This document shows, piece by piece, positions 7,666 to 47,174 of a stretch of 64,000 nt of DNA (within the stretch, counting starts at the first letter, position 1; each line of letters starts with the position of its first letter). The notes under the pieces are model-generated. The model was not told the origin of the DNA. It saw only the letters and a program-made list of their open reading frames with translations, and did no database searches. The position numbers were made by a program, and so were the translations under genes. This DNA comes from Candidatus Saccharimonadota bacterium. GTDB taxonomy: Bacteria; Patescibacteriota; Saccharimonadia; UBA4664. The stretch lies in the NCBI GenBank assembly GCA_019352195.1, contig JACAFG010000005.1, positions 92,287 through 156,286 of the forward strand, in the 5' to 3' direction.

Positions 7666-8424
7666 ATGATGAAACAAATTTCACGTCTGGTAGCAGCTCT
7701 CGTCCTGGTGGCGCTGGTAAGCCCAGTAACGGCTTTGGCCTCCACGGGCGGACGCGACTGCGACGATAACGCCTTAGTATATTGTGGTGCCTATACCCAA
7801 AGTGAGCTCAACACAAAAATTGCTCAGGGTGATACCAAAAACTCGGCGGCCGATTTGCAGGCCATTTACTCAAGCCGCGGTATGACTACGGCGGCCATTA
7901 ACGCCACCGTTGATGGCACTGTGTCGCAAGATGGCCGCGTGTTTGTGAACGGACACGTGGTGGCGACCGACGCTAAGAGCGACGGGCGCCACAAGCAGCC
8001 AACCGGTTCAGTAGCGGACGGTTCGTTGTGGCTGACGCCGACGCAGGATTCGTTCCTGAGCACATCAATTCAGGCGTTCGTTTATATGAAGAGTGGCGTC
8101 TTTCAGTGGGCCATTCTTAAGTCTTGTGGTAACACGGTGGTAGCCACACCGCCAACGACTCCGACGCCCACCCCGACGGCGACACCAACACCCAAGCCGA
8201 CGCCCACGCTAACTCCCGCGACGACGGTAACGCCGACGCCTACCCCGGTAGCGCCAACTCCTACGCCAACCCCGACCCCAACGCCCACGCCGCTGCCATC
8301 AACTGGTCCCGAAGCGCCGATTGCCGGTGTTATGGGGCTCACGGGCATCGGTTACGCTGCGCGCAGCTACTACGCCAGTCGTAACAAGTTGCGCAACGCC
8401 CTGCGCAAGATTGTGGATAAATAG
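7666..8424 (+). CDS. LPXTG-anchored cell-surface protein, paralog of 5868..7445
   Basis: Shared N-terminal domain (DC(D/N)DN(A/S)L(V/I)Y ... DLQAIY ... SCGNTVV). PT linker. C-terminal LPSTG followed by a hydrophobic stretch and an RNK tail. Confidence 0.7.
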   Translation: MMKQISRLVAALVLVALVSPVTALASTGGRDCDDNALVYCGAYTQSELNTKIAQGDTKNSAADLQAIYSSRGMTTAAINATVDGTVSQDGRVFVNGHVVATDAKSDGRHKQPTGSVADGSLWLTPTQDSFLSTSIQAFVYMKSGVFQWAILKSCGNTVVATPPTTPTPTPTATPTPKPTPTLTPATTVTPTPTPVAPTPTPTPTPTPTPLPSTGPEAPIAGVMGLTGIGYAARSYYASRNKLRNALRKIVDK

Positions 8425-14942: not shown

Positions 14943-15984
14943 CAGCCTCGAGTTGCTGTACATCGGTCAGGCCTCGAGCATGGAAGCTCGCATTGTGGCT
15001 GCGGCTAAAATTCCGTTTGCCTCAATTCAAGCCGGTAAGCTGCGGCGGACGAAGAGTCTCCAGGCGGCCATGCTTAATGTCCGCGATATGGCATTGGCGG
15101 TGACTGGGGTAGCACAGGCGACGAAGGTGTTGCGCCAATTCAAACCCGACATTGTCTTTCTCAAAGGCGGCTATGTGTGTTTGCCCGTGGGCGTGGCGGC
15201 AAAATTGCTCAGAATTCCTTATGTTATTCATGAATCGGATATTCATGTCGGGCTTACCAATCGTATTTTGGCTCGTTGGGCAACGACGATTGCCGTCGGT
15301 TTTCCGGTGAAAAATTATCATGATTTTGATCCCGACAAACTGGTTTTTACCGGTAATCCCGTCCGTCATGGGCTGCTTCGGGCCCACCGGCTAGAGGGCT
15401 TGGCGGCGTTTAAGCTTGAAGGGGCGTTACCGGTAATTTTGGTGACGGGCGGGTCGCAGGGAGCGCGCCAGGTGAATGACGTTGTCTTGGATGCTTTGCC
15501 TGAGCTGCTCGAGCGCTATCAGGTAATTCATCAAACAGGCGACGGCGAAATTGGCCGGATTAAGTTTGAATTATCACGTCGAAAACTCAAATATATTAAA
15601 CGCTACCGCCCGGTGGCTTTCCTTATGGCCGAAATGCCGATGGCGCTCGCCGCTGCAGATTTGCTGATAGCGCGAGCGGGCGCGCAAACGATTGCCGAAG
15701 CGGCCGTGCTAGCTAAACCAACCGTACTAATACCGAACTACCAAGCGGCAGCACATCAGCAGGAAAACGCCAAAGTCCTCGCCCGCGCGGGCGCGGCGCG
15801 CGTCTTAAATGGCGCTACGGTGACGCCCGGACAGCTGGTAGGGGAGGTGAGACGCATTTTGGACAATCCGCACGAGCTGGAGCTATTGGGGCAGGGGATT
15901 AAGGCGTTTGGCCGCCCGCACGCCGCGGCAGATTTGGCGAAGCTCATCTTACGGGTGGCAGGGCAGGGGAGAACGCGTGGCTGA
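14857..15984 (+). CDS. murG: UDP-GlcNAc:undecaprenyl-PP-MurNAc-pentapeptide GlcNAc transferase
   Basis: MRIVVSGGGSAGHITP N-terminus (GT28 G-loop). GAGGAGG RBS. Confidence 0.85.
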   Translation: MRIVVSGGGSAGHITPTLAVCEKLKSLDSSLELLYIGQASSMEARIVAAAKIPFASIQAGKLRRTKSLQAAMLNVRDMALAVTGVAQATKVLRQFKPDIVFLKGGYVCLPVGVAAKLLRIPYVIHESDIHVGLTNRILARWATTIAVGFPVKNYHDFDPDKLVFTGNPVRHGLLRAHRLEGLAAFKLEGALPVILVTGGSQGARQVNDVVLDALPELLERYQVIHQTGDGEIGRIKFELSRRKLKYIKRYRPVAFLMAEMPMALAAADLLIARAGAQTIAEAAVLAKPTVLIPNYQAAAHQQENAKVLARAGAARVLNGATVTPGQLVGEVRRILDNPHELELLGQGIKAFGRPHAAADLAKLILRVAGQGRTRG

Positions 15985-36448: not shown

Positions 36449-38085
36449 GCTCGTACCTGTGCGGCCGCTTGTTTGAGACTGGCCTGCATAAAACCATTAA
36501 ACAGCGGATGCGCGCGATACGGGCGGCTTTTAAATTCAGGATGGAACTGGCTGGCGACAAAATAGGGATGATCACGTAGCTCAACGACTTCAACGAGCTT
36601 TCCGTCCGGCGACAGGCCAACCAAATTAAGCCCGGCGGCAGTTAGCTGATCGCGGTAGTCATTATTTACTTCCCAACGGTGCCGGTGCCGCTCGGTAATT
36701 TTGGTATTACCGTAGAGCATGGCCGACTTTGAACGTCGCTCGAGGACACAGGGATAATCGCCCAGACGCATGGTGCCACCTTTGGTCTCGACGCCACGCT
36801 GATCGGCCATAAGGTCGATAACCGGGTATGGCGTGTTGGGGTCTACCTCGGTGGTATGGGCACCCGTCAGGCCGCTATTGCGAGCCACTGCAATAACGGC
36901 TGTCTGGAGACCCAAACACAGCCCGAGGTACGGAATACCGTGCTTGATGGCGTATTGGCCCGCAATAATCTTGCCTTCGACGCCGCGGCTGCCAAATCCG
37001 CCGGGCACTACCAAACCGTCGTAACCTGCTAGTAAGTCGGCCGGTTCGGCGCTTTCCAAAGCTTCGGCGTCAATCCAGCTAATCTGCGGCTGGATCGAAT
37101 TGGCCCAGCCGGCGGCTTTGATGGCCTCAAAGACGCTCATATAGGTATCTTCGTTGTCCATATACTTGGCTACTACACCAATGCGCAGAACGCGGTGGTC
37201 GGGATGTTTAATGAGCGATACCAATTTTTCCCAGGCGTCTAGTTTTGCTTTGCGGTCTTTGACACCGAGGTGGCGACAAATATAGTTGGGGATGCCCGAT
37301 TGCTCAAGCAGAAGCGGCACTTCATAAACCGTTTTGGCCGTTGGCATAGGAATAATTGCGTCTTCATCAACGTCACCAAATAAGGCAATTTTGGTTAATA
37401 CGCCTTTGGTGAGCGGCTTTTCGGCGCGCGCCACAACCACGTCGGCTTGAATACCGGCTTCACGTAAATCCCGAATGGCGTTTTGCGCTGGCTTGGTTTT
37501 AAGTTCGTGGGACGCTTCTAGGTACGGGACATACACCAGATGCATTGATAGCGTACTGGCGTGGCCGACGCGGCGGCGAAACTGGCGGATGGCTTCTAAC
37601 GTGGCTTGGGACTCGTAGTCCCCCACTGTGCCGCCAACCTCAACGATGTGAAAATCAAAGCCACGGCCAGCGGTAAGGATTTGATCCTGAATTTCGTTGG
37701 TCACATGGGGAATAATTTGTACGGTTTTACCTAAATATTTGCCGGCGCGCTCATCGGCAATAATTTTAGCGTAAATCCGGCCGTTCATGACGGAGCTGCT
37801 TTGGGTGAGCTCATCATCGAGGAACCGCTCGTAGTGGCCAAGATCCAAATCGGTCTCGGCGCCGTCTTTGGTTACAAAGCATTCACCGTGCTCGGCTGGG
37901 TTGAGCGTACCGGCGTCGGTATTAAAGTAGGGATCGAGTTTTTGGAGGTTAACTTTGAATCCGCGAGCTTTGAGGGTGGTTCCGAGCGAAGCGGCGGTGA
38001 TGCCTTTACCGAGTCCCGAAAGCACTCCGCCGGTCACAAAGATGTACTTCGTGGTAACTTCCGCCACGCGTTCCCCTCTCAACAA
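36445..38085 (-). CDS. pyrG: CTP synthase
   Basis: MTTKYIFVTGGVLSGLGKGITAASLG N-terminus. Glutamine amidotransferase C-terminal domain. Confidence 0.92.
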   Translation of the reverse strand: MLRGERVAEVTTKYIFVTGGVLSGLGKGITAASLGTTLKARGFKVNLQKLDPYFNTDAGTLNPAEHGECFVTKDGAETDLDLGHYERFLDDELTQSSSVMNGRIYAKIIADERAGKYLGKTVQIIPHVTNEIQDQILTAGRGFDFHIVEVGGTVGDYESQATLEAIRQFRRRVGHASTLSMHLVYVPYLEASHELKTKPAQNAIRDLREAGIQADVVVARAEKPLTKGVLTKIALFGDVDEDAIIPMPTAKTVYEVPLLLEQSGIPNYICRHLGVKDRKAKLDAWEKLVSLIKHPDHRVLRIGVVAKYMDNEDTYMSVFEAIKAAGWANSIQPQISWIDAEALESAEPADLLAGYDGLVVPGGFGSRGVEGKIIAGQYAIKHGIPYLGLCLGLQTAVIAVARNSGLTGAHTTEVDPNTPYPVIDLMADQRGVETKGGTMRLGDYPCVLERRSKSAMLYGNTKITERHRHRWEVNNDYRDQLTAAGLNLVGLSPDGKLVEVVELRDHPYFVASQFHPEFKSRPYRAHPLFNGFMQASLKQAAAQVRA

Positions 38086-38225
38086 TTGTATTCAGTATAC
38101 GTGGTTAAGCTTGTGACCCGCAAGCTAAACTGTTGAGGAGCCCCGCCGAAATTATTTGGCGGGGCTCCTGAGTCGGCGTTAGGGGCCGACGAGTTGGGGC
38201 CTGGGCGGACATTGTGACTAAACAG

Positions 38226-38414
38226 TCAGGGGTGCTGATCAACCCGATCTATCCAAGCAAGTCCAGATGGGTCGGTTTCGAGATGACAAGTCGGACAACG
38301 AAACCACACGGGAGCTCGATGCAGGTGTGACGTAAACTGTTCAAGTTGGATCATGCAACGTGGACAAGACCGGGCGGTTTGGGTAGCTGGCAGGTTGAGG
38401 GTTGCGTTGATCAT
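38226..38414 (-). CDS. small zinc-ribbon protein (two CxxC pairs), in a short GC-rich segment
   Basis: CPRC ... CPTC spacing. A perfect hairpin terminator lies at 38131-38162 downstream. Confidence 0.3.
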   Translation of the reverse strand: MINATLNLPATQTARSCPRCMIQLEQFTSHLHRAPVWFRCPTCHLETDPSGLAWIDRVDQHP

Positions 38415-38506
38415 TGGGACCCTTCGGCTCGAGCATTGGGTGGGCTACGATGCATGCTGTTCGAGTGCGGCGGATGAACGACCCCGCAGCTCGTTTTGAT
38501 CTTGAT

Positions 38507-39482
38507 CTATTTTAGCTGGTTGAGGGCGGCGTCGAGCTGCGGATCGCGGTTATTGTTGTAATCATCGGGCGTGAGCTGCACGACGACGTCAGGCGTGATC
38601 CCCTTTTGACCAATGTTGATGCCATTGGGGGTGAACCAGTGAGCTACGGTGACTTTGAGTTCACCACCGCCGGACAGATTCTTGATCTCCTGGGCCCTCG
38701 GGCAGGAATTCGCTGGCAACCGTAACACCGGCGTCGAGGAAGCCGCCCGGATTGTCACGCAGATCCAAAATGATCTTGCTGGCGCCCTGCTGCTTGAGTG
38801 ACGTCGCAGCTTTATCGATGAGCTCTGACGTATCGGAACCGAAGGTGCGAATTTGGATGTAGCCAATCGTACTGGTTTTCATACTCGAGGTGACGCTGGG
38901 CACCGTAATGTTGGCGCGGGTAATTTTGACGTCGAAGGCGGGGGCATTGCCTCGTACAATCGTCAGCGTAACTACTGTACCGGCTGTCCCACGGATCTTG
39001 GTGACGGCGGCATCGACCGTCAGTCCGCTCGTTGAGGTACCGTCGATTTTGGCAATAATATCGCTCGAACGAAGTCCTGCCGCGGCGGCTGGCGTGTCTG
39101 GGACCGGTGAAACGACGGTTAGATAGTTATTTTTGAGCCCAACTTCGGCGCCAATGCCCGATAATTGTCCATTGAGCTGATCGTTGAGGGCTTTGGCATC
39201 GGTGGGGCTCAAATAGACAGTGTACGGATCGCCGGCGGACGACACGAGACCGGCCTTGGCACCTTCAAGGGCTTTCTCGGGGTCAACGTTACCGTCGAAA
39301 TTGCTCCTCAGCATACTGTAAATTTCATTGAGGCTTGAGAAGTCGAGCTTGCTCTGATGTAGCCCCGGCAACGTAATATAATCGCGGGCAATATCACCGG
39401 CGTAGAATGAGGCCACCATAAGTACGAGTACGATGAGGCCGCCGCTTAGTTTGCGAAGGACATCGGGTTTGAGGGTTTTCAT
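38507..39482 (-). pseudogene. ctpA: S41 C-terminal processing peptidase (Ctp) remnant. It has an N-terminal signal/TM and PDZ domain (39482-38661) and a C-terminal tail (38866-38507) in different frames, with the catalytic Ser/Lys segment apparently deleted.
   Basis: Frame A ends ... ILDLRDNPGGFLDAGVTVASEFLPEG at about 38690. Frame B resumes ... LSGGGELKVTVAHWFTPNGINIGQKGITPD. The expected VVLVNxGSASASE ... FGKG block is absent in all frames. Confidence 0.55.
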
Positions 39483-39553
39483 AGGTGGGCCTTTCGGATT
39501 ACCGCCTGTTAAAGCGGCTCAGGGGGAGCCGCTTTAAGGTCGCATATGTAATT

Positions 39554-40630
39554 TTAGTGAATGTAGTTGAAATAGCTCTTGGAATAGGTACCGTAGCGGA
39601 AGTGACCGTAACCGTCATAGTTCATTTCACTCACAATGACGTTGTCGCCTTGAATGGCCTCTACCACCGCAACGTGTCCGTAGGCTCCGGCACTGGTTTG
39701 GGCAATAGCCCCTACCTCTGGCGTACTGTCGACTCGGAAACCGTCGGCGCGGGCATATCCGGCCCAAGTGTTGGCATTGCCCCACCCGGTAGGAACGGCG
39801 CGACCCATGGAGGCACGACGCCATCCGGCCCAGGAGACACACTCGCGGTTGAGGCCCCAAGCCCCACCATAGCCGTAGGCATCTTGCGGAGCACTACACC
39901 AGGCGCTTGGATAGCCGCCATTGCCGTGGCCGTTGTCGCAGGCACCGCCCGACCCGCTCGAGGCACCGGGGATGGAGCCGCCGAAGCTGCGTGAGTTGGC
40001 GGCTAGGATGGCAGCCTGCTGCGCTTTGAGCGAAGCAATTTGCGAGTTGCTCTGCTTTACTTGCGCATTAGCGGCGTTAACGTTTTGCGCAGCGGTGGCC
40101 AGGAGCTGGTTGGCCTCAGCTTGGTTTGCGGCTAGTTGTTGGTTTTGGGTGTTTTCGTTGTCCAAAATAGCCGTAACTTGAGTTTTTTGGTCGGCCAGCT
40201 TAGCTTGAGTCGCCAATATGTCGGCCATGGCTGACTGAATTTTATTCTTAATGCTGTCCTGATACTGCTGTTGGTTGAAGTAGTCGCTTAAATTATTGCT
40301 GGAAGCAATCATTTCGATAGGTGTAATCGATGAATCAAGATACATGCTCTTGAGGTTATCGCCCAACGCGACTTTTTCGCTACTCAGTTTGGCCTCGTTA
40401 GAAGCAATATTTGCGGTCACCTGATTATACTGGGCTTGATTGAGGTTGATCTGAGCCTGCAGTGCGTTCATTTGGGCTTGCAGCTGCTGCACGCGAGCCT
40501 GGTAATCGTTGGCCTGCGCCGAGTACTGGTTGGCGGTGGCCTGTTGTTGACTGGCCTGAACTTTGAGCGCGGCGATTTGCTGGTCGAACTGATCAGCTAA
40601 GGCTGCACTCGAAAACAAAGAACAGACCAC
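39554..40630 (-). CDS. coiled-coil + CHAP-domain peptidoglycan hydrolase (PcsB/CwlO-like). The N-terminus is unresolved: the signal peptide extends upstream of the first canonical start.
   Basis: About 200 aa Q/A-rich coiled coil. C-terminal CHAP domain (CVSWAGWRR ... GHVAVVE ... MNYDGYGHFRY). The in-frame upstream sequence KFTNLSQTVIRAIAAVVVCSLFSSAALA looks like the signal peptide but contains no ATG/GTG/TTG before the TAG. Confidence 0.7.
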   Translation of the reverse strand: MVCSLFSSAALADQFDQQIAALKVQASQQQATANQYSAQANDYQARVQQLQAQMNALQAQINLNQAQYNQVTANIASNEAKLSSEKVALGDNLKSMYLDSSITPIEMIASSNNLSDYFNQQQYQDSIKNKIQSAMADILATQAKLADQKTQVTAILDNENTQNQQLAANQAEANQLLATAAQNVNAANAQVKQSNSQIASLKAQQAAILAANSRSFGGSIPGASSGSGGACDNGHGNGGYPSAWCSAPQDAYGYGGAWGLNRECVSWAGWRRASMGRAVPTGWGNANTWAGYARADGFRVDSTPEVGAIAQTSAGAYGHVAVVEAIQGDNVIVSEMNYDGYGHFRYGTYSKSYFNYIH

Positions 40631-40893
40631 AACCGCAGCAATGGCGCGGATGACGGTCTGTGATAGATTGGTGAACTTAGTACGGATAGTCTTGCCCCTC
40701 CAAGCACTTTCAATGATATAGCATATGTTCTATCTGTCAAACTGGTTGTGCTATTGACCTTATTCACAAGAAATGGGCCTATTTAATAGCTGAGTTTTAG
40801 ATGAATACATTACGAGAGGTTTTATCTGGTGGCAACTCCGAACACTGTATTTTGGCATGGAATGAGCTGAGGATGTTCGTTTGTTCGGCTGGA

Positions 40894-41808
40894 CTAGAGT
40901 TTGAGATATCGGCTCATAGCTAAAATTGATGAGACGGCGCCAATAATAATTCCGAGCAGCAGTTCACCGCCTAAGATCACAAACGGATAGGATTGGAAGA
41001 AGCTGATGGTAGAACCAAAGTCGATATAACTAGCCACCTTGGGCGCACTACTCAAGAGAACTAGATACGAGAAGGTTACGGCAACGATGGCCGCGATAAT
41101 TCCGTAAAGGGCCGCCTCAAAAATAAACGGTCCGCGAATAAACCATTTGGTGGCACCGACAAGCTTCATGATTTCGATTTCATCGCGCCGGGTAAAAATG
41201 GCCATTCTGATGGTGTTGAAAATGATCAGTGTCGAAATGACGACAAAGACAATACTGGCTGCTAAGCCCGCAGTTTTGAAGAAGTTAGCAAAGTGAACAA
41301 TACGGTCGATGGTTTCTTTGCGGCCGCCCGTGTAGCTTGGTGGGGCGGTGGGATCGAGCAGACTTTGGTTGGCCTGCTGACTCACGACTGCTTCGATAGC
41401 GTCGAGATGTTTGGGATCGATGGCTTTTACCTCAATTGAAGACGGCAAAACATTGCCAGCTGTATCGAGCGCCTGGATGAGCGATGGCTTATCTTTGTTT
41501 TGGTTCTTATAGTTAGCAACTGCCTGATCAGGGCTGACATACATGAGGCTCGCGACGTTACCGCTGCTTTTGAGGGCGGCTTCGAAAGCAGCCACCTGAT
41601 CGGGCGTCGTGTTATTGTTGAGGAAAATCGAGACGTCAATTTTATCGGTCACCCCTTTGATGGTAGCGGTAAGGGCGAGGCTTGAGATAAACGACACAAT
41701 GACGATGATAAGGGTCACCGTCATAACGGCGGTAGCAGCAGTTGAGAGCCAGGCGTTACGCAGAAAGTTGCGGATGCCGCCGTGAAGTATTCGCCAAAAT
41801 TGCAGCAT
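40894..41808 (-). CDS. ftsX: cell division ABC transporter permease FtsX
   Basis: Four-TM FtsX topology with a large extracytoplasmic loop. Overlaps the ftsE stop. Confidence 0.85.
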   Translation of the reverse strand: MLQFWRILHGGIRNFLRNAWLSTAATAVMTVTLIIVIVSFISSLALTATIKGVTDKIDVSIFLNNNTTPDQVAAFEAALKSSGNVASLMYVSPDQAVANYKNQNKDKPSLIQALDTAGNVLPSSIEVKAIDPKHLDAIEAVVSQQANQSLLDPTAPPSYTGGRKETIDRIVHFANFFKTAGLAASIVFVVISTLIIFNTIRMAIFTRRDEIEIMKLVGATKWFIRGPFIFEAALYGIIAAIVAVTFSYLVLLSSAPKVASYIDFGSTISFFQSYPFVILGGELLLGIIIGAVSSILAMSRYLKL

Positions 41809-42551
41809 TAGTTTTGTGCCTCAACCCCAGTGGCAATGCCCTTGGTAGCGCCCTTGAGGGTCGTTGGGTTTTCTAAGGTGTAGCGTCCCTGTTCATCATC
41901 GCGGATGATGCGGCCGCGGTTGATCGTGATAACACGTCGTTTGAGGGCGTTTACAATTTCTTTGTTGTGCGTAGTGAGCAGCACGGTGGTACCAAAACGG
42001 TTAATTTTGAGCAAAAGCTCGATAATTTGCCAGGCATTGCCGGGGTCGAGGTTACCGGTTGGTTCGTCGGCGATAAGAATTTTGGGCTGGCGAATGAGCG
42101 CCCGGGCAATGGCGACACGCTGACGCTCACCACCTGACAGTTCGTGCGGGTACATGTTTTGCTTGGCCGATAGGCCAACGAGGGTGAGCATCTTGGGTAC
42201 AGCGCGCTTAATTTCGCGCTGGCGGGCCCCCGAAACTTCGAGCGCAAAGGCGACATTTTCACCTACGCGGCGGTTGGGTAGGAGTTTAAAATCTTGAAAC
42301 ACCACCCCAATGCGACGGCGCACGAGCGGCACGTCTTTCGCGGTAATCGTGTCGTAATCAAGTCCACCGACAATGATTTTGCCTGAACTATGCGTTTCTT
42401 CGCGCGTCAGAAGCTTGATGAGCGTACTCTTGCCGGCGCCACTGGAACCCACAATAGTCACAAATTCTTTAGGCTCAATATGAAGATTGAGACCCGATAA
42501 CGCCGTTTGGCCGTTCGGATATACTTTGGTAACTCGATCGAATAGAATCAT
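41808..42551 (-). CDS. ftsE: cell division ABC transporter ATP-binding protein FtsE
   Basis: Walker A GSSGAGKST. ABC signature LSGGERQRVAIARAL. Walker B ILIADEPT. About 247 aa. Confidence 0.9.
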   Translation of the reverse strand: MILFDRVTKVYPNGQTALSGLNLHIEPKEFVTIVGSSGAGKSTLIKLLTREETHSSGKIIVGGLDYDTITAKDVPLVRRRIGVVFQDFKLLPNRRVGENVAFALEVSGARQREIKRAVPKMLTLVGLSAKQNMYPHELSGGERQRVAIARALIRQPKILIADEPTGNLDPGNAWQIIELLLKINRFGTTVLLTTHNKEIVNALKRRVITINRGRIIRDDEQGRYTLENPTTLKGATKGIATGVEAQN

Positions 42552-42606
42552 TACCGTCTCATCTTATCATAGAGTGAACTTGGTTGTGGTTAGGATAGGC
42601 GGTACA

Positions 42607-42645
42607 TGATTGAGGACGATCCTGGTGACAAGATCGTCCTCAATT
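42607..42645. promoter_or_regulatory. perfect 13-bp inverted repeat ATTGAGGACGATC-(10 nt)-GATCGTCCTCAAT at the junction between the ftsE upstream region and GC-rich island 5
   Basis: Seen directly. Lies about 60 bp upstream of the ftsE start codon. Confidence 0.4.
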
Positions 42646-43040
42646 GTCGTGAGAGACGGGCGATGATTTTGCGGCTTATTTCATTAGCCGCGGGGTGGCC
42701 TCAACTGGCTGGGACGGGCCCGGTTGGGCGGCGGACCGATGCTGGCCATGGCTTCGAGGGCACGGTTACCTCGATGGTTGCGTTGGGCGCCGGTGTGTCG
42801 AGTAATCGATTTCCGGCCGGCTCGGCCAAATAAGGTAGGCCGTCGGAGTTCTGGCCGGCGATGCCGGCGAAGGTCAGATGACGCAAGAAGCTGCCGACTT
42901 CGACGGCGAACTGGCTGGCGGTCGTGTCAGTCCCCTCGTCCCCAATTGCTACCAGAAACTTCGTCCGGCATTTGCGGCAGCGCCGATCGACTGATGGCAC
43001 ACGTATGCCGCACGCCCCACACGTGTAGGGACCGCCAACA

Positions 43041-43156
43041 CGAAATTAAGCGCGCTGTGCCCAAGATGCTCACCCTCGTTGGCCTATCGGCCAAGCAAAA
43101 CATGTACCCGCACGAACTGTCAGGTGGTGAGCGTCAGCGTGTCGCCATTGCCCGGG
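43041..43156 (+). repeat. 116-bp inverted duplicate (115/116 identical) of an internal ftsE segment (42101-42216, encoding EIKRAVPKMLTLVGLSAKQNMYPHELSGGERQRVAIAR)
   Basis: Direct sequence comparison. The single difference is a synonymous T/C (GTA vs GTG, Val). Confidence 0.85.
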
Positions 43157-43200
43157 GCAATTATTATCCCAAACATGTCATACTAGTTAAAGGTAGCCCA

Positions 43201-43569
43201 ATGAGCGAATACCCAAACCATATACGAGCGCAGTTTGATGAGGCGGTAACGTCGAGTCCCGACGCGCTGCTGTGTATTCTCAACCCGGCGGGCCAGCTGC
43301 TCGCGGTCTCGCCTTCAGTCGAGCCGATTCATGGCTATCTCCCGTCTGAAGTGGTTGGGACTAACTTTTCCATCTACTTTGATGCCGATGACGTAAATCA
43401 TCTAAGGTTAGTTATCCAAGATTGTATTCTAACCGGGCAATCCATCGAAGCAAGCCGCCGCGTTAAGCACAAAACTGGCGCCTACCGGCGAATGCGTGGG
43501 GCTGCCACCAAACTTGAGGATGATGCTACAGGTGATGCCTATATTCTCTCAATTGCTCGGCCGGTTTAG
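43201..43569 (+). CDS. small stand-alone PAS-domain protein
   Basis: About 122 aa. A PAS-like fold is inferred from ... LCILNPAGQLLAVSPSVEPIHGYLPSEVVGTNFSIYFDADD ... The ORF track fuses it to upstream junk (42724..). Confidence 0.45.
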   Translation: MSEYPNHIRAQFDEAVTSSPDALLCILNPAGQLLAVSPSVEPIHGYLPSEVVGTNFSIYFDADDVNHLRLVIQDCILTGQSIEASRRVKHKTGAYRRMRGAATKLEDDATGDAYILSIARPV

Positions 43570-43682
43570 CTGGCGTTCGCAGCAAAAAACTACGCGAACT
43601 ACCCGGCCAAGTGGTACAAATAAGCATAATTGTCAGCAAAAAGTAACATTATTAGCCATATTGCAGTTATCAGGTACAAATT

Positions 43683-43713
43683 CATTGACACAAATGTCAA
43701 TGTGTCCTAACAT
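43683..43713 (+). promoter_or_regulatory. promoter with a palindromic operator: CATTGACA-caaa-TGTCAATG overlapping a TTGACA -35; TAACAT -10 lies 17 nt downstream
   Basis: Lies in a locally AT-rich spacer inside the GC-rich island, 75 nt upstream of the TasA-like gene. Confidence 0.45.
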
Positions 43714-43787
43714 ATCTTGGTGTCGTCTATCCAGGCGATCGTTCCACCACGTGTTCGAGGAATCGAGCACGCGACAAAAGGAGTCCC

Positions 43788-44462
43788 ATGTCCAGTTCCA
43801 AGCCCAGCGTGAACCCCGATGCCAAGCCCAAGCGGAAGCGTCGCGGTCTCGTAGCCCTCTTCTGTTCCGTCTTGCTCTGCGGCGGCCTCTTCGTGTTCCT
43901 CGGTTAGGCCAGCACCGGTGCCTACTTCAGCGACACCAAGGCCGGCACCGTCTCCGGTACCGTCGGATCCATCAAGATCACGGGTACCGGCGGCTCGGGC
44001 GCCGACAATCTCTCGGTCAGCTTCGATCGGCTGCTGCCGGGTGAGAACCAGTCGGTGACGACGTCATGGACGAACACCGGCCTCAACAAAGAAGACGTCT
44101 TCGTGGTGTTCTCGAACCCTGACGCGCTGCACGCGCTGAACAACCTCGGGACCTACGGTGAGGTCCACATCGTGGGCAACAACGGACCGGTCTTCGACAG
44201 CGCCAACCTCAACGACAATTCGGCGTCATGTGTCACGTTCTCGCCGTCGGGATGTTGGCCGGTCGCCAAGAGCTACAAGATCGGCACCAACATCACCCCC
44301 GGAGGCACCGGATCCTGGACGTTCACCTTCGGGTACGCCTCCAAGCTGTCGACTCAGTCCGCCGCCGGCGGTGGCGATTGGAACTCCTACCCCTTGGGTG
44401 GGCCGACCAACTCCGGTCTTCCGTACCAGCTGGTCGCGGTCCAGCCGGGCCAGACCCCGTAG
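43788..44462 (+). pseudogene. TasA/camelysin-family secreted protein with a SipW-cognate-class signal peptide, interrupted by a single in-frame TAG at 43905-43907
   Basis: AAAGGAG RBS. MSSSKPSVNPDAKPKRKRRGLVALFCSVLLCGGLFVFLG-TAG-ASTGAYFSDTKAGTVSG ... (the AxFSD(T)E motif). Same frame throughout. Confidence 0.6.
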
Positions 44463-44520
44463 TACCACTTAGGTGGCGCGGGCAACGTCTGTCCGCGCCA
44501 CCTAGGTCCTACCACAAGGA

Positions 44521-45042
44521 GTGGACATAGTGCCAAAATGGCTCAGTATCACCGTCAGTGCCCTCGTCTTTGCTGCCATGGTGGTAGTAAGCCTGTCGCT
44601 TCTGATGTCACACCACCTCTATGTGGTGCGCACGGGCTCAATGGGAAACACCTACCCGCCCAAGACGCTCGTCGTCGTCAAGGTTGGTGAGTACCATGTG
44701 GGACAAGTTATCTCGTTCCGCGAGCATGGCGATATCACCACCCACCGCCTCCTCGGCTTCAACGCCGACGGTACGCTCATCACCAAAGGCGACGCCAACG
44801 ACACTCCCGATCCCTGGACTCTCCACCGCTCCGACATTATCGGTGGCGTCACTGGCTCGGTTCGCGGCCTCGGCTACTGGTTCATCTATGCGAAGAACCC
44901 CTACGGCCTCGGCTCCATGGTTTGCTTAGTCCTCGCGATCTGGCTGTCCATCAAACTTTACCGCGAGATGACTCCTGAGACCGACGCAGAGTCCGACCCG
45001 CCCGACAATTCGCTCGAGGATCTCATCCTGAGCTCCTCCTGA
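44521..45042 (+). CDS. sipW: SipW-type (archaeal/ER-type, S26B) signal peptidase I
   Basis: N-terminal TM helix. VVRTGSMGNTYPPKTLVVV, then VGQVISFREHGDITTHRL and ITKGDANDTPDPW, compared from memory with B. subtilis SipW (SGSSMEP ... VTHRVIEV ... ITKGDNN ... D.W). C-terminal TM helix. GTG start with an AAGGAG RBS. Confidence 0.75.
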   Translation: MDIVPKWLSITVSALVFAAMVVVSLSLLMSHHLYVVRTGSMGNTYPPKTLVVVKVGEYHVGQVISFREHGDITTHRLLGFNADGTLITKGDANDTPDPWTLHRSDIIGGVTGSVRGLGYWFIYAKNPYGLGSMVCLVLAIWLSIKLYREMTPETDAESDPPDNSLEDLILSSS

Positions 45043-45105
45043 CCACCAGCCCTCGTCCGCAACTAGTTTTGCGCGGACGGGGGCTTCGTCTATTTTGCAG
45101 TTAGG

Positions 45106-45795
45106 CTACCACAACCAAAGTAAAATGTCTGCACCCCCAGAAGGAGTGCAGGCATTTGATTTTCGGACCTGACAAGACCAGTCGGTCATGCAGATATGCG
45201 GCACGCCAGCGATAATCGCACGCTTGGGGTTACCAGCCGCCGTCCACTCGTCGTGGGTGATGAGGATGGAAACGCTGCCCGCCTGGGCATTACAATCTGG
45301 AACTTCCCAGACGGGGGCGCTTACCTTGGCAATGACAAACCCATCGAGAAAGCGTCGCACCGGCGCGTAGCCGGAAGCGGCCCAGTCAACTCGTTGGATG
45401 TAGTGGTACTGATCGACGCCCGGCGAGCTGAAGAACACCTCGGCCGTCGATGTCATGTACCGCAGCACGTCGCTGTCGGGAATCCATCTCACTGTGTGAA
45501 TCGTCGGGTTACCCCAAGCCACCCGTTGGGCGTGGGACATATATGTCGCATGGCCACCGACCACCCGGTAGGCCCGTGCGTTCCACGAGTAGCGGACGTA
45601 GGATCCGGACGGCGTTGCAGCTTTGACAGTCTGAGCAAAGACAACTGACACAGTGGCAGGGCTGGCAGCCACGGGTGTGGCCGCCGAAGCCGTGCCAACC
45701 GTAGCAAAAACCACGATGCCCAGTGCGAGGATGAGACTGCTCGCCAACGTGACGAGGCGGTTCCTCCAGGGTATGGGAGTACGAACAGAAGACAT
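45106..45795 (-). CDS. secreted hypothetical protein (signal peptide; Cys/Trp-rich)
   Basis: N-terminal signal peptide MSSVRTPIPWRNRLVTLASSLILALGIVVFATVGTASA. No motif recognised. Confidence 0.4.
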   Translation of the reverse strand: MSSVRTPIPWRNRLVTLASSLILALGIVVFATVGTASAATPVAASPATVSVVFAQTVKAATPSGSYVRYSWNARAYRVVGGHATYMSHAQRVAWGNPTIHTVRWIPDSDVLRYMTSTAEVFFSSPGVDQYHYIQRVDWAASGYAPVRRFLDGFVIAKVSAPVWEVPDCNAQAGSVSILITHDEWTAAGNPKRAIIAGVPHICMTDWSCQVRKSNACTPSGGADILLWLW

Positions 45796-45834
45796 GATTG
45801 CCTTTCTTGAGGCAGTCGGGAACCTCCATTCCGT

Positions 45835-46840
45835 TTTGAATCAGGACACTCTCCCGCAAACTGACACCATGAAGAAAGCACCCAAACTGTCGGATGCGGA
45901 GCGGTCAGAAATTGGCACACTTTTAAGTAAAAAAGTATTTACTTCGGGACATTGCCCGGGTATTGGGGCGCAGCCCCAATACCGTGTCCGACGAGATTAA
46001 GCGCAATAGTGTGTGGGATCGGTATGAGGTCGAGTCGGCGAAACGCAAAAGCTACTATGTGCGTAAATATGCCAAGTATCAGGGCAAGAAGATTCAGGAA
46101 AATATGGATCTGCGGTGGTACATCATCGTGCGGCTTCAGGCGCATTGGAACCCAGATGAAATTGCTGGAGCCATAAGCAGCTGTTTTACGCCTCCAAAAC
46201 TGCCATTTACGACTGGCTACGTTCCGAATGGGGCCAGCGTTACTGCCAGTTTCTGGACTCACAGCGACATCGCCCGCGCAAGCGCCAGAAGAAGGCGGTT
46301 CGTCCCATGATTACAGATAGGGTGAGCATTGTAGAACGGCCTTTGGGCGCCACAAATCGCACCCGGTATGGCCACTGGGAGGGTGACACGGTTGTGTCCG
46401 GAAAACGCACCGGTAGCACGGCGGCGTTGGTGGTGACCGTGGAGCGCAAAACACGGCTCGTGGCCGCGAGAACAATACCCGACTTGAGGCCGGCGAGCTT
46501 TAATAGCGCCATCCAGGACGTCCAGACTGGCGTAACAAAGATGCGCAGTCTGAGTTTAGACAACGGCATTGAGAACCGTTGGCACGGCCAGCTGAGCGTC
46601 CCAGCTTACTTGTGTGCTCCGTACTCCAGTTGGCAAAAAGGCAGTGTAGAAAATGCTAACAAAATGATACGGCGGTACCTGCCCAAGGGCCTGGATCTAG
46701 TCACCGTGACACCGACTCGCTTACAAGATATTATTTAGATAATTAGCAACAAACCCAGGAGGATCCTGGGGTATAAATCGGCCACACAAGTGGCCACAGA
46801 GAAAGGAATATTACGAGAGCAAGTGTCCTGATTGGGGGCT
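45835..46840 (+). mobile_element. IS30-family insertion sequence remnant (~1.0 kb) with imperfect terminal inverted repeats sharing AATCAGGACACT
   Basis: IR core at 45839-45850 and its reverse complement at 46822-46833. A transposase ORF lies between them. Confidence 0.65.
45869..46738 (+). pseudogene. IS30-family DDE transposase, split across three frames
   Basis: HTH segment LGRSPNTVSDEIKRN. WNPDEIAG. TAIYDWL ... HWEGDTV ... ERKTR ... DNGIEN ... SWQKGSVENANKMIRRYLPKG. Frame change at the A6 run near 45925-45935 and a second change near 46165-46175. Confidence 0.7.
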
Positions 46841-47174
46841 GAATGCAGCTTTTTTCGGGTGATATTGCAGCAACTACGTCGGCGTAGTCACTACGACTTA
46901 CAACCATGTCTTCTCCTCGGGCTAGGGACGGATTTGACGACACTTTGTCGTCAATGGGAACTGGGACGAGCGGGACTCTGTCTGGTGTCGGGGCACGTTG
47001 GGTGGACCCATTCTGCCGGGATGATGGGCGGCAGGCCGAGCACGTCGCGCAGGGGGCGGTCGATTCCTGTCCAGTCGGACAGTTTGGGACGGGACATGAA
47101 GACTCCAAGAGGTCGAAGGACGGCGATCAACGTGGAACTAGCGATATTATGAAATAACATATTAATAATTACAA

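What the first reader, a model, noticed from the sequence alone, without database searches (positions are those of the whole stretch)
38507..42551. FtsE-FtsX-PcsB-like (coiled-coil CHAP hydrolase) module followed by a decayed Ctp protease
The gene order ftsE-ftsX-[coiled-coil + CHAP hydrolase]-ctp reproduces the streptococcal FtsEX-PcsB and B. subtilis FtsEX-CwlO logic, in which an ABC-transporter-like complex mechanically activates a coiled-coil peptidoglycan hydrolase. Two anomalies stand out. First, the hydrolase ORF has its signal-peptide-like sequence upstream of any canonical start codon. Second, the adjacent S41 Ctp gene has lost the segment that should hold the catalytic Ser/Lys dyad, and the remainder sits in two frames. 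Together with the island and the ftsE repeat next door, this locus has clearly been reshaped recently.
Basis: partly seen in the sequence, partly recalled or inferred. Interest (0 to 1): 0.6.

Follow-up and report, generated by a model that had tools for sequence, protein, structure and literature searches.

The report
Saccharibacterial FtsEX cell-wall hydrolase gene cluster
This is the ordinary, widely conserved cell-division cluster ftsE-ftsX-(coiled-coil CHAP wall hydrolase)-ctp of a Saccharibacteria genome; its hydrolase probably starts at a rare AUC codon, and the "decayed" protease is one 200-base deletion seen only in this assembly, while an intact copy exists in the same population.

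Summary
The window comes from a Candidatus Saccharibacteria MAG. On the minus strand lie ftsE, ftsX, a secreted coiled-coil + CHAP hydrolase and an S41 Ctp protease. About 17 Saccharimonadia relatives keep this order (prfB-ftsE-ftsX-CHAP-ctp-pyrG). The hydrolase has PcsB-like architecture (best fold match PcsB 4CGK; also RipC and EnvC) but scores far below the PcsB equivalog cut-off.

Anomaly 1 is real. No ATG/GTG/TTG precedes the signal peptide. A conserved promoter and GGAGGGG site sit 9 nt before an in-frame ATC. Twelve of 16 distinct lineages have ATT/ATC at that position, and the frame upstream of it is not conserved. An AUC/AUU start codon is the best reading, and the public annotation (GTG, 358 aa) is truncated.

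Anomaly 2 is not gene decay. The ctp lesion is one clean 200-nt deletion that removes the catalytic Ser and Lys. It is private to this assembly (truncated product MBW4061894.1). A second deposited assembly and an independent assembly of run SRR11551193, both otherwise almost identical to the window, carry the missing bases and an intact 391-aa Ctp. The deletion's right edge coincides with a scaffold gap in the second assembly. So it is either a segregating deletion allele or an assembly error. Interest is low to moderate.

The parts
41808..42551 (-). ftsE, the ABC-type ATPase of the FtsEX complex (247 aa)
   Evidence: Pfam ABC_tran E 1.5e-35. NCBIfam TIGR02673 FtsE equivalog 268.7 bits, above the 264.85 cut-off. 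81-92% identical to relatives.
40894..41808 (-). ftsX, the permease-like membrane partner with an extracellular domain (304 aa). Its ATG overlaps the ftsE stop codon by 1 nt.
   Evidence: Pfam FtsX E 2.4e-17 and FtsX_ECD E 5.4e-17, both above cut-off. Best NCBIfam model is FtsX_Gpos at 201 bits, below its 225 cut-off.
40713..40740 (-). Sigma-70-type promoter of the hydrolase gene: TTGACA, 16 nt, TATCAT
   Evidence: It matches 11 of 12 consensus positions, the best site in 38300-42800. The -35 TTGAC bases and the -10 TA...T bases are invariant at fixed spacing in 16 aligned relatives.
40695..40701 (-). Shine-Dalgarno sequence GGAGGGG of the hydrolase
   Evidence: Conserved as nucleotides in relatives, although it falls in different reading frames in different lineages.
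40685..40687 (-). Proposed non-canonical AUC initiation codon of the hydrolase, 9 nt after GGAGG
   Evidence: ATT or ATC sits at this aligned position, 7-10 nt after the SD, in 12 of 16 distinct lineages. TTG takes that place in the other four. There is no canonical start between the upstream stop and 40630. The start region is less folded than shuffled sequences, z +1.65.
39554..40687 (-). Secreted coiled-coil + CHAP peptidoglycan hydrolase, 377 codons from the AUC. The public annotation starts at GTG 40630 (358 aa, MBW4061895.1).
   Evidence: Pfam CHAP E 3.5e-16. The AlphaFold model has two long helices, a disordered linker and a C-terminal alpha/beta domain. Best Foldseek match is PcsB 4CGK at E 4e-11, with RipC 8IDC_E and EnvC 8TZL_E/6TPI_A also matched. 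The catalytic Cys and His positions are invariant across 24 aligned homologues.
40595..40687 (-). Signal peptide: (M)RTKFTNLSQTVIRAIAAVVVCSLFSSAALA, cleaved before DQ
   Evidence: Read directly from the translation. Every relative keeps a basic N-region, a hydrophobic core and an A-x-A site.
39995..40594 (-). Coiled-coil (helical hairpin) region, the presumed FtsX-binding part
   Evidence: DSSP helices at 2-118 and 134-232 of the 378-residue query. Colinear phmmer match to PcsB 4CGK, residues 29-360 against 33-366, E 1.2e-6.
39557..39862 (-). CHAP catalytic domain, with Cys in RECVSWAG, His in YGHVAVVE, and the VSEMNYD motif
   Evidence: Pfam CHAP covers residues 257-337 of the 358-aa form. 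It aligns with the PcsB and staphylococcal CHAP structures 9R6W, 2LRJ and 2K3A.
38661..39482 (-). ctp 5' piece: membrane anchor, CtpB_N-like region, PDZ, and the first 61 positions of the S41 domain. It then runs out of frame to a stop. Annotated as MBW4061894.1.
   Evidence: Pfam matches. The exact 273-aa product is in NCBI from the 226,252-nt contig.
38507..38692 (-). ctp 3' piece in another frame: S41 profile positions 128-165 plus the C-terminus
   Evidence: Pfam Peptidase_S41 E 2.9e-6 over residues 59-96 of ORF 38866-38507.
38693..38694 (-). Deletion junction, GAGGGC|CCAGGAG. 200 nt of the intact allele are missing here (203 positions in the JABBYD01 scaffold, which counts its 10 N).
   Evidence: blastn of L001 and L002 against the window. 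The sequences themselves are shown.
43028..43156 (+). Inverted 129-nt copy of an internal ftsE segment (source 42101-42229), at the ftsE-proximal end of a genome-specific insertion spanning 42552-47174
   Evidence: Inverted repeat, 97% complementary. Relatives have prfB directly upstream of ftsE.

Best explanation
The region is the standard division-site wall-cleavage cluster of a Candidatus Saccharibacteria genome.

How it most likely works (inferred by analogy with FtsEX-PcsB, FtsEX-RipC and FtsEX-EnvC):
- FtsE, a cytoplasmic ATPase, and FtsX, a membrane protein with an extracellular domain, form an ABC-transporter-like complex.
- The extracellular domain holds the long helical hairpin of a secreted CHAP peptidoglycan hydrolase.
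- ATP-driven movement switches the hydrolase on at the septum.

The hydrolase gene:
- It has its own conserved promoter and a GGAGGGG ribosome-binding site.
- It most likely initiates at AUC 40687, not at the annotated GTG 40630. That start gives it a full Sec signal peptide.
- A near-cognate start would keep translation of a potentially lytic enzyme low (inferred).

The downstream membrane-anchored S41/PDZ protease Ctp is conserved in this position. It plausibly trims or degrades the hydrolase, as CtpA and Prc do with wall hydrolases (inferred).

The ctp lesion:
- In this assembly ctp carries one 200-nt frameshifting deletion that removes the catalytic Ser and Lys.
- The intact allele exists in the same, virtually identical population.
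- So the lesion is either a very recent deletion allele still segregating in the population, which I favour slightly, or an assembly error. It is not progressive gene decay.
For: Gene identities.

Synteny: prfB-ftsE-ftsX-CHAP-ctp(-pyrG) holds in every relative with enough flanking sequence (L003, L004, L008, L013, L014, L017, L021, L023, L053). The shorter loci are consistent with it.

Hydrolase architecture:
- AF2 helices 2-118 and 134-232, plus a CHAP domain.
- Foldseek top hit PcsB 4CGK, E 4e-11. RipC in the FtsEX complex 8IDC_E and EnvC 8TZL_E/6TPI_A are also matched.
- Catalytic Cys and His positions invariant in 24 homologues.

Start codon:
- No canonical start lies upstream of the signal peptide.
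- ATT or ATC lies 7-10 nt after the SD in the window, L052, L003, L004, L013, L014, L054, L005, L018, L053, L019 and L020.
- A 1-nt indel between the SD and the ATT in L003 changes the frame upstream of that codon but not downstream.
- The gene callers disagree: they give truncated N-termini for P0001, P0002, P0003, P0006 and P0015, and starts upstream of the SD for P0009 and P0012.
- The start region is unstructured.
- Two assemblies agree 100% across this stretch.
- Precedent: AUU, AUC and AUA initiate at 1-2% of AUG in E. coli (10.1101/063800). Conserved AUU/AUA starts in S. aureus give about 10% of AUG expression (10.1101/2025.06.19.660503).

ctp:
- The window equals JABBYD010000014.1 (L001) and Logan contig L002 at 100%, apart from the missing 203 and 200 nt.
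- L002 encodes a 391-aa Ctp. It aligns over residues 51-368 with P. aeruginosa CtpA 7RPQ at E 1e-67, including GGSASASE and FGKGSVQ. It scores 324.8 bits on TIGR00225, against a cut-off of 218.6.
- The truncated product occurs only in the NCBI assembly with the 226,252-nt contig. The intact product occurs only in Logan.
- The first base after the N10 gap in L001 is exactly the first base after the deletion.
- The window also has a private SNP at 15972.
- CtpA degrades cell-wall hydrolases (PMC8764530).
Against: - No interaction, activity or expression data exist for this organism, so the FtsEX-hydrolase coupling is by analogy only.
- The hydrolase scores 66 bits against the 450-bit cut-off of the PcsB equivalog model. 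Whole-model TM-scores to PcsB are low at 0.26, and the model has mean pLDDT 70 and pTM 0.38.
- AUC initiation is inferred from conservation, not measured.
- L014-L016 carry an ATG 3 nt after the SD that could be their start.
- L005 and L018 have an in-frame ATG just upstream of the SD that could belong to a very short-leader mRNA.
- I could not inspect reads, so I cannot tell a real deletion allele from an assembly error.
- The deletion is exactly 200 nt with no microhomology at the junction, which is unusual for either origin.
Confidence: 0.7

Rival explanations
1. The ctp deletion is purely an assembly error in the 226,252-nt contig. The organism has only the intact ctp.
For: Two other assemblies of the same population carry the 200 nt. 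No Logan contig yields the truncated 273-aa product. The site is a known trouble spot, because the JABBYD01 scaffold has an N10 gap there. The length is a round 200 nt with no microhomology at the junction.
Against: De Bruijn-graph assemblers do not normally create junctions that are absent from the reads. A contig that starts exactly at the first base shared by both alleles is what a real two-allele branch point would produce. The same assembly also carries a private SNP at 15972, so it may follow a distinct haplotype.
Confidence: 0.4
2. One reading: ctp is a decaying pseudogene fixed in this lineage, as part of a recent remodelling of the whole locus.
For: In the window the catalytic Ser and Lys are missing and the remainder lies in two frames. 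An island and an inverted ftsE fragment lie just upstream.
Against: Both flanks of the deletion are 100% identical to the intact allele, with no further lesions. The intact allele is present in the same population. ctp is full length in all 11 relatives that reach it.
Confidence: 0.08
3. The hydrolase starts at the annotated GTG 40630. The upstream open frame is then untranslated or a relic.
For: GTG is the first canonical start codon, and NCBI annotates it that way (MBW4061895.1).
Against: No SD precedes that GTG. The product would begin MVCSLFSSAALA, with no charged N-region. The upstream frame stays open and keeps signal-peptide character in all relatives despite low sequence identity. A promoter, SD and ATY codon are conserved 57 nt upstream.
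Confidence: 0.1
4. The hydrolase gene has lost its start codon (ATG to AAG at 40693-40691, compare L014) and is itself an untranslated pseudogene.
For: L014-L016 read GGC ATG ACC ATT where the window reads GGC AAG ACT ATC.
Against: At least 11 lineages lack that ATG, yet they keep an intact ORF of about 377 codons, 65% mean column identity and invariant catalytic residues. An ATG only 3 nt after GGAGG is badly spaced.
Confidence: 0.05

Closest known systems
Streptococcus pneumoniae FtsEX-PcsB (PDB 4CGK; PMC5061712, bioRxiv 10.1101/2025.05.23.655736)
   Same: A secreted protein with a signal peptide, a long coiled-coil domain, a linker and a C-terminal CHAP domain. It is the best full-length fold match and the sequence match is colinear. 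The Cys and His positions are conserved. FtsE and FtsX are present.
   Different: Only 23-26% identity. It scores 66 bits against the 450-bit cut-off of the PcsB equivalog model, so it is not an ortholog by that test. Here the hydrolase is encoded directly downstream of ftsX, followed by ctp. It probably starts at AUC.
Mycobacterium tuberculosis FtsEX-RipC (PDB 8IDC/8JIA; PMC10694151) and Bacillus subtilis FtsEX-CwlO (PMC6705773)
   Same: FtsEX directly controls a hydrolase built from a coiled coil and a cysteine-peptidase domain. RipC in the complex is a Foldseek hit at E 2.6e-4. JGI names several homologues 'CwlO-like'.
   Different: RipC and CwlO carry NlpC/P60 domains, not CHAP. CwlO needs the SweC and SweD cofactors, and I did not look for these here.
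Gram-negative FtsEX-EnvC-amidase system (PDB 6TPI, 8TZL; PMC10214136)
   Same: A helical hairpin that docks on the FtsX extracellular domain. EnvC chains are fold hits.
   Different: EnvC is a catalytically inactive LytM-type activator of separate amidases. Here the coiled-coil protein carries its own catalytic domain.
Carboxyl-terminal processing proteases CtpA (P. aeruginosa, 7RPQ) and CtpB (B. subtilis, 4C2C)
   Same: The intact allele aligns end to end (E 1e-67 and 1e-57) with the PDZ domain, the Ser and Lys of the GGSASASE and FGKGSVQ motifs, and the Gln. The catalytic triads Ser302-Lys327-Gln331 and Ser309-Lys334-Gln338 are given in PMC8764530. CtpA degrades wall hydrolases. From my own knowledge, ctpB lies just downstream of ftsX in B. 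subtilis.
   Different: The window copy lacks the Ser and Lys because of the 200-nt deletion. No LbcA-like partner was looked for. The substrate here is unknown.
Genes with conserved near-cognate start codons (E. coli infC and pcnB with AUU; S. aureus infC, cvfC1 and ccpN with AUA or AUU)
   Same: An AUY codon at proper spacing behind a strong SD, conserved across species, where gene callers fail.
   Different: The gene class differs, being a secreted autolysin. Initiation is not shown experimentally. The SD here is a strong core (GGAGGGG) and is not clearly an extended SD.

Membership tests
FtsEX-controlled coiled-coil peptidoglycan hydrolase module | FtsE: an ABC ATPase of the FtsE equivalog family | tested here: met
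   TIGR02673 scores 268.7 bits, above the 264.85 cut-off.
FtsEX-controlled coiled-coil peptidoglycan hydrolase module | FtsX: a permease-like membrane domain plus an extracellular (ECD) domain | tested here: met
   Pfam FtsX 63.5 bits and FtsX_ECD 62.6 bits, both above cut-off. The NCBIfam FtsX models fall below their cut-offs (201 against 225).
FtsEX-controlled coiled-coil peptidoglycan hydrolase module | Partner protein with a signal peptide, a long coiled coil and a C-terminal catalytic or activator domain | tested here: met
   plus Pfam CHAP.
FtsEX-controlled coiled-coil peptidoglycan hydrolase module | Physical binding of the coiled coil to the FtsX ECD, and ATP-dependent activation | not testable with these tools
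   No tool for predicting complexes and no experiment. Inferred from gene adjacency conserved in about 17 loci.
PcsB (NCBIfam NF046104 equivalog) | Score at or above the curated equivalog cut-off | tested here: not met
   66.3 bits against a 450 cut-off. Only residues 148-360 match.
CHAP domain (PF05257) cysteine peptidase/amidase | Domain match above cut-off, with the catalytic Cys and His conserved | tested here: met
   59.9 bits against a 26 cut-off. C284 and H339 are invariant in 24 sequences. They align with the PcsB motifs ECT...GHVAVV.
S41 C-terminal processing peptidase (TIGR00225 / PF03572) | A contiguous S41 domain with the catalytic Ser and Lys | tested here: not met
   Window copy: profile positions 63-127 are missing and the frame is shifted. 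The intact allele in L002 meets the feature, at 324.8 bits against a 218.6 cut-off, with both motifs present.
Genes initiated at near-cognate AUU/AUC codons | An AUY codon 5-10 nt behind an SD, no canonical start available, and conservation in relatives | tested here: met
Genes initiated at near-cognate AUU/AUC codons | Demonstrated initiation (an N-terminal fMet peptide, a toeprint or a ribosome-profiling peak) | not testable with these tools
   Needs an experiment in a cultured Saccharibacterium or a heterologous reporter.

The most novel reading that the evidence does not exclude
Across a large clade of Saccharimonadia, the FtsEX-coupled autolysin is translated from a conserved AUU/AUC start codon. 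This would act as a built-in throttle, sensitive to initiation factor IF3, on a potentially lethal enzyme in bacteria with very small genomes. In this population a natural null allele of the adjacent Ctp protease would also be segregating, which would give a natural test of whether Ctp controls that autolysin.
Probability: 0.35. Interest if true: 0.45.

Novelty: new member of a known kind. Interest (0 to 1): 0.3.

Why it matters
FtsEX-hydrolase modules are well understood in model bacteria but have not been described in the literature for Saccharibacteria. My full-text searches found no paper that links Saccharibacteria with PcsB, and none that discusses FtsEX hydrolases in them.

Three practical points follow:
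- The hydrolase is systematically mis-annotated in public databases. It is either truncated so that it lacks its signal peptide, or extended upstream of the ribosome-binding site. The cause is that its start codon is probably AUU/AUC.
- A conserved near-cognate start on an autolysin would be a simple case of control at translation initiation that can be tested.
- The apparent ctp pseudogene is a warning about MAGs. One assembly's lesion is contradicted by two other assemblies of the same population, so no claim of gene loss should rest on it.

Tried and rejected
- I first took the window for GCA_017884045.1 and read the missing 203 nt as an artefact of window preparation around the N10 gap. 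I dropped this when exact-sequence look-ups showed that the truncated 273-aa product is itself a deposited NCBI protein (MBW4061894.1) from a different, 226,252-nt contig.
- The scan of genome contigs did not return the source genome and gave only 6 useful relatives. The metagenome scan added 11.
- Exact look-ups of the truncated Ctp and of the window's murG in the assembly index found nothing. The look-up of window 7666-8424 also failed.
- Rfam found no RNA family in 38000-43600, so a known riboswitch or leader does not explain the upstream region.
- Literature searches for the run and assembly accessions found nothing.
- I considered a frameshift or sequencing error at the hydrolase start. 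I rejected it because two assemblies agree there and relatives share the same arrangement.
- I considered the upstream ATGs in some homologues as the true starts. I rejected this because they sit at different, non-homologous positions: before the SD, inside the -10 box, or 3 nt after the SD.
- The extended-SD idea was not supported for the window. GGAGGGGCAAG departs from the ideal GGAGGUGAUC after the core.

Full report
**Source of the window**

Exact-sequence look-ups and blastn place the window in a Candidatus Saccharibacteria MAG. Three assemblies of what is essentially one population are public:
- The assembly that the window comes from. Its contig is 226,252 nt, with PGAP proteins MBW4061869 (MurG), MBW4061894, MBW4061895, MBW4061896 and MBW4061899.
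- GCA_017884045.1, scaffold JABBYD010000014.1, 220,798 nt (L001 and L049).
- The Logan assembly of run SRR11551193 (L002, L050, L051 and L055).

Over about 41 kb the window differs from JABBYD01 by one SNP (window 15972) and one indel. Over about 42 kb it differs from the Logan contigs by that indel only.

**The genes**

On the minus strand lie:
- ftsE, 42551-41808. It passes the FtsE equivalog cut-off.
- ftsX, 41808-40894. It has the Pfam FtsX and FtsX_ECD domains, and its ATG overlaps the ftsE stop codon by 1 nt.
- A hydrolase ORF with a CHAP domain, 40630-39554 as listed.
- Two pieces of an S41/PDZ protease, 39482-38661 and 38866-38507.

tblastn of these proteins against 17 related loci from genomes and metagenomes gives the order prfB-ftsE-ftsX-CHAP-ctp(-pyrG) wherever the contig is long enough. 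The cluster is therefore an old, conserved feature of Saccharimonadia and is not peculiar to this genome.

The hydrolase family is large. A homology search gave 497 hits with E <= 1e-3 among the 8000 candidates scored. The best 120 all carry CHAP, and most are 350-400 aa long. JGI already names several of them 'CwlO-like' or 'surface antigen'.

**The hydrolase**

An AlphaFold2 model built from 24 homologues has mean pLDDT 70 and pTM 0.38. Numbering follows the 378-residue query, which carried one extra N-terminal Met. The model shows:
- one helix over residues 2-118, which includes the signal peptide;
- a short turn region;
- a second helix over 134-232;
- a disordered Gly/Ser linker;
- an alpha/beta domain over 261-378.

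Foldseek against the PDB gives PcsB (4CGK) as the best match, full length, E 4e-11. CHAP domains follow. RipC inside the M. tuberculosis FtsEX complex (8IDC_E) and EnvC (8TZL_E, 6TPI_A) are also matched. TM-scores are low (0.26-0.38), as expected when long helices are placed differently.

By sequence, PcsB 4CGK matches colinearly over residues 29-360 (E 1.2e-6). The CHAP motifs align: ECV here against ECT in PcsB, GHVAVV in both, and SEMNY against SESNY. The Cys and His are invariant in the family alignment.

The protein fails the curated PcsB equivalog model by a wide margin, 66 bits against 450. So it works like PcsB, RipC or CwlO in architecture and context, but it is not an ortholog of PcsB.

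**Anomaly 1: the start codon**

The frame is open from the TAG at 40732-40730, and it contains no ATG, GTG or TTG before 40630. The annotated GTG start has no ribosome-binding site. It would leave a 12-residue, uncharged stub of a signal peptide.

Upstream there is a near-consensus promoter, TTGACA-16-TATCAT at 40740-40713. Then comes GGAGGGG at 40701-40695. Nine nucleotides later comes an in-frame ATC at 40687. From that codon the product reads (M)RTKFTNLSQTVIRAIAAVVVCSLFSSAALA|DQ, a textbook Sec signal peptide.

The same layout is conserved at fixed spacing in 16 aligned lineages. The codon 7-10 nt behind the SD is:
- ATT or ATC in 12 lineages: the window, L052, L003, L004, L013, L014, L054, L005, L018, L053, L019 and L020;
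- TTG in four: L007, L008, L017 and L021. In L008 and L017 the TTG directly precedes an ATC or ATT codon.

Three further observations argue that translation begins at this codon:
- The GGAGGGG element is read in different frames in different lineages. In L003, a 1-nt indel between it and the ATT shifts the upstream frame but not the downstream one.
- The ATGs that some gene callers used lie at non-homologous places: before the SD, inside the -10 box, or 3 nt after the SD.
- The start region folds less well than 194 of 200 shuffled sequences.

In the window this is the only place where GGAGG plus an ATY codon precedes the first canonical start of a long ORF. The sequence is identical in two assemblies.

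There is precedent. AUA, AUC and AUU initiate at 1-2% of AUG in E. coli, where only infC and pcnB are confirmed cases (10.1101/063800). Conserved AUU and AUA starts behind strong SDs in S. aureus give about 10% of AUG expression (10.1101/2025.06.19.660503). That such a start lowers expression of an autolysin here is my inference.

**Anomaly 2: ctp**

In the window, S41 profile positions 63-127 are missing, and the two remaining matches abut at about 38690 in different frames.

Alignment with L001 and L002 shows a single event. The window lacks L002 3438-3637, which is 200 nt. The junction reads GAGGGC|CCAGGAG at 38694|38693 and has no microhomology. Everything on either side is 100% identical.

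The Logan allele encodes a 391-aa Ctp:
- It passes TIGR00225, 324.8 bits against a cut-off of 218.6.
- It aligns over residues 51-368 with P. aeruginosa CtpA (7RPQ, E 1e-67), including GGSASASE and FGKGSVQ.
- These motifs hold the Ser-Lys(-Gln) catalytic residues: Ser302/Lys327/Gln331 in CtpA and Ser309/Lys334/Gln338 in CtpB (PMC8764530).

The deletion removes the Ser and the Lys and leaves the Gln.

JABBYD01 carries 193 of the 200 nt, followed by an N10 scaffold gap. The first base after that gap is exactly the first base after the deletion in the window.

The truncated 273-aa product occurs only in the window's assembly. The intact product occurs only in Logan. All 11 relatives that reach ctp have it full length.

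There are two readings, and I cannot separate them without reads:
- **A real deletion allele that coexists with the intact allele.** Three points favour it. The JABBYD01 contig starts exactly at the first base shared by both alleles, which is where a two-allele graph would break. The window's assembly has a private SNP, which suggests it follows a second haplotype. Graph assemblers do not invent junctions.
- **An assembly error at a difficult spot.** Two points favour it. No Logan contig shows the truncated allele. The length is a round 200 nt with no microhomology.

Either way this is not progressive decay.

**Context**

In this genome about 4.6 kb (42552-47174) separates prfB from ftsE, while relatives have the two genes adjacent. 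The island holds small ORFs with almost no family matches. It ends near ftsE with an inverted, 97%-identical 129-nt copy of an internal ftsE segment. The upstream side of the cluster has therefore been rearranged, but the ftsE-ftsX-hydrolase-ctp unit itself is conserved.

**Likely mechanism**

Shown here:
- the domain content, the synteny, the promoter-SD-AUY layout and the catalytic residues;
- the single deletion in ctp, and the existence of an intact allele.

Inferred by analogy (PMC5061712, PMC10694151, PMC10214136, PMC6705773):
- FtsEX holds the helical hairpin of the hydrolase through the FtsX extracellular domain.
- It uses ATP hydrolysis to release the CHAP domain for septal wall cleavage.

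Inferred from CtpA (PMC8764530, PMC11021448): the co-located Ctp limits the hydrolase by C-terminal proteolysis.

**Verdict**

This is a well-conserved, already annotated kind of module in a phylum where it has not been discussed. The one modestly interesting feature is the probable conserved AUU/AUC start. One of the two apparent anomalies belongs to a single assembly. Novelty: new member of a known kind. Interest: 0.3.

Noticed in passing
window 42552-47174: A 4.6-kb insertion between prfB and ftsE that is absent from all relatives. GC rises to 0.61 at 44-45 kb. It holds eight small ORFs. The only family signals are a weak S26 signal-peptidase match (44530-45042, E 7.5e-4) and a PAS protein (43066-43569). 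Logan contig L051 independently joins prfB to the left part of the island.
   Followed up: partly
window 43028-43156 and 42101-42229: An inverted 129-nt copy (97%, 4 mismatches) of ftsE codons ~108-150, which cover the region around the LSGGERQRVAIAR signature motif. It lies at the ftsE-proximal end of the island. Annotators have fused it in frame to the N-terminus of the PAS protein (MBW4061899.1, 191 aa). The Logan contig L002 breaks inside the repeat, at 42130.
   Followed up: partly
window ~42609-42642: A perfect 12-nt inverted repeat, TTGAGGACGATC-N10-GATCGTCCTCAA, about 60 nt upstream of the ftsE start. It could be a terminator, an operator or an insertion-boundary element.
   Followed up: no
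window 40736-40758 (minus strand); also L004, L005, L013, L018, L052, L053: A GTCAA-N13-TTGAC palindrome whose right arm is the -35 box of the hydrolase promoter. It is conserved in several relatives although the inner bases do not pair, so it may be a regulator binding site.
   Followed up: no
window 15972: A single-base difference from JABBYD010000014.1. It changes Ser to Arg four residues before the MurG C-terminus. The other allele is shared by JABBYD01 and Logan, so this assembly follows a slightly different consensus or haplotype.
   Followed up: partly
L005 1922-2028, L018 545-651: In these relatives an in-frame ATG lies 4 nt after the -10 box (its A is the fifth base downstream) and upstream of the SD. 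It could mark a leaderless or very short-leader transcript. Gene callers use it as the start (MSLGGDHIIR...).
   Followed up: no
window 40760-40893: The spacer between ftsX and the hydrolase promoter is about 150 nt longer here than in several relatives, where the ftsX stop codon lies 3 nt from the extended -35 box (L008, L014, L017, L054). No Rfam family matches it.
   Followed up: partly
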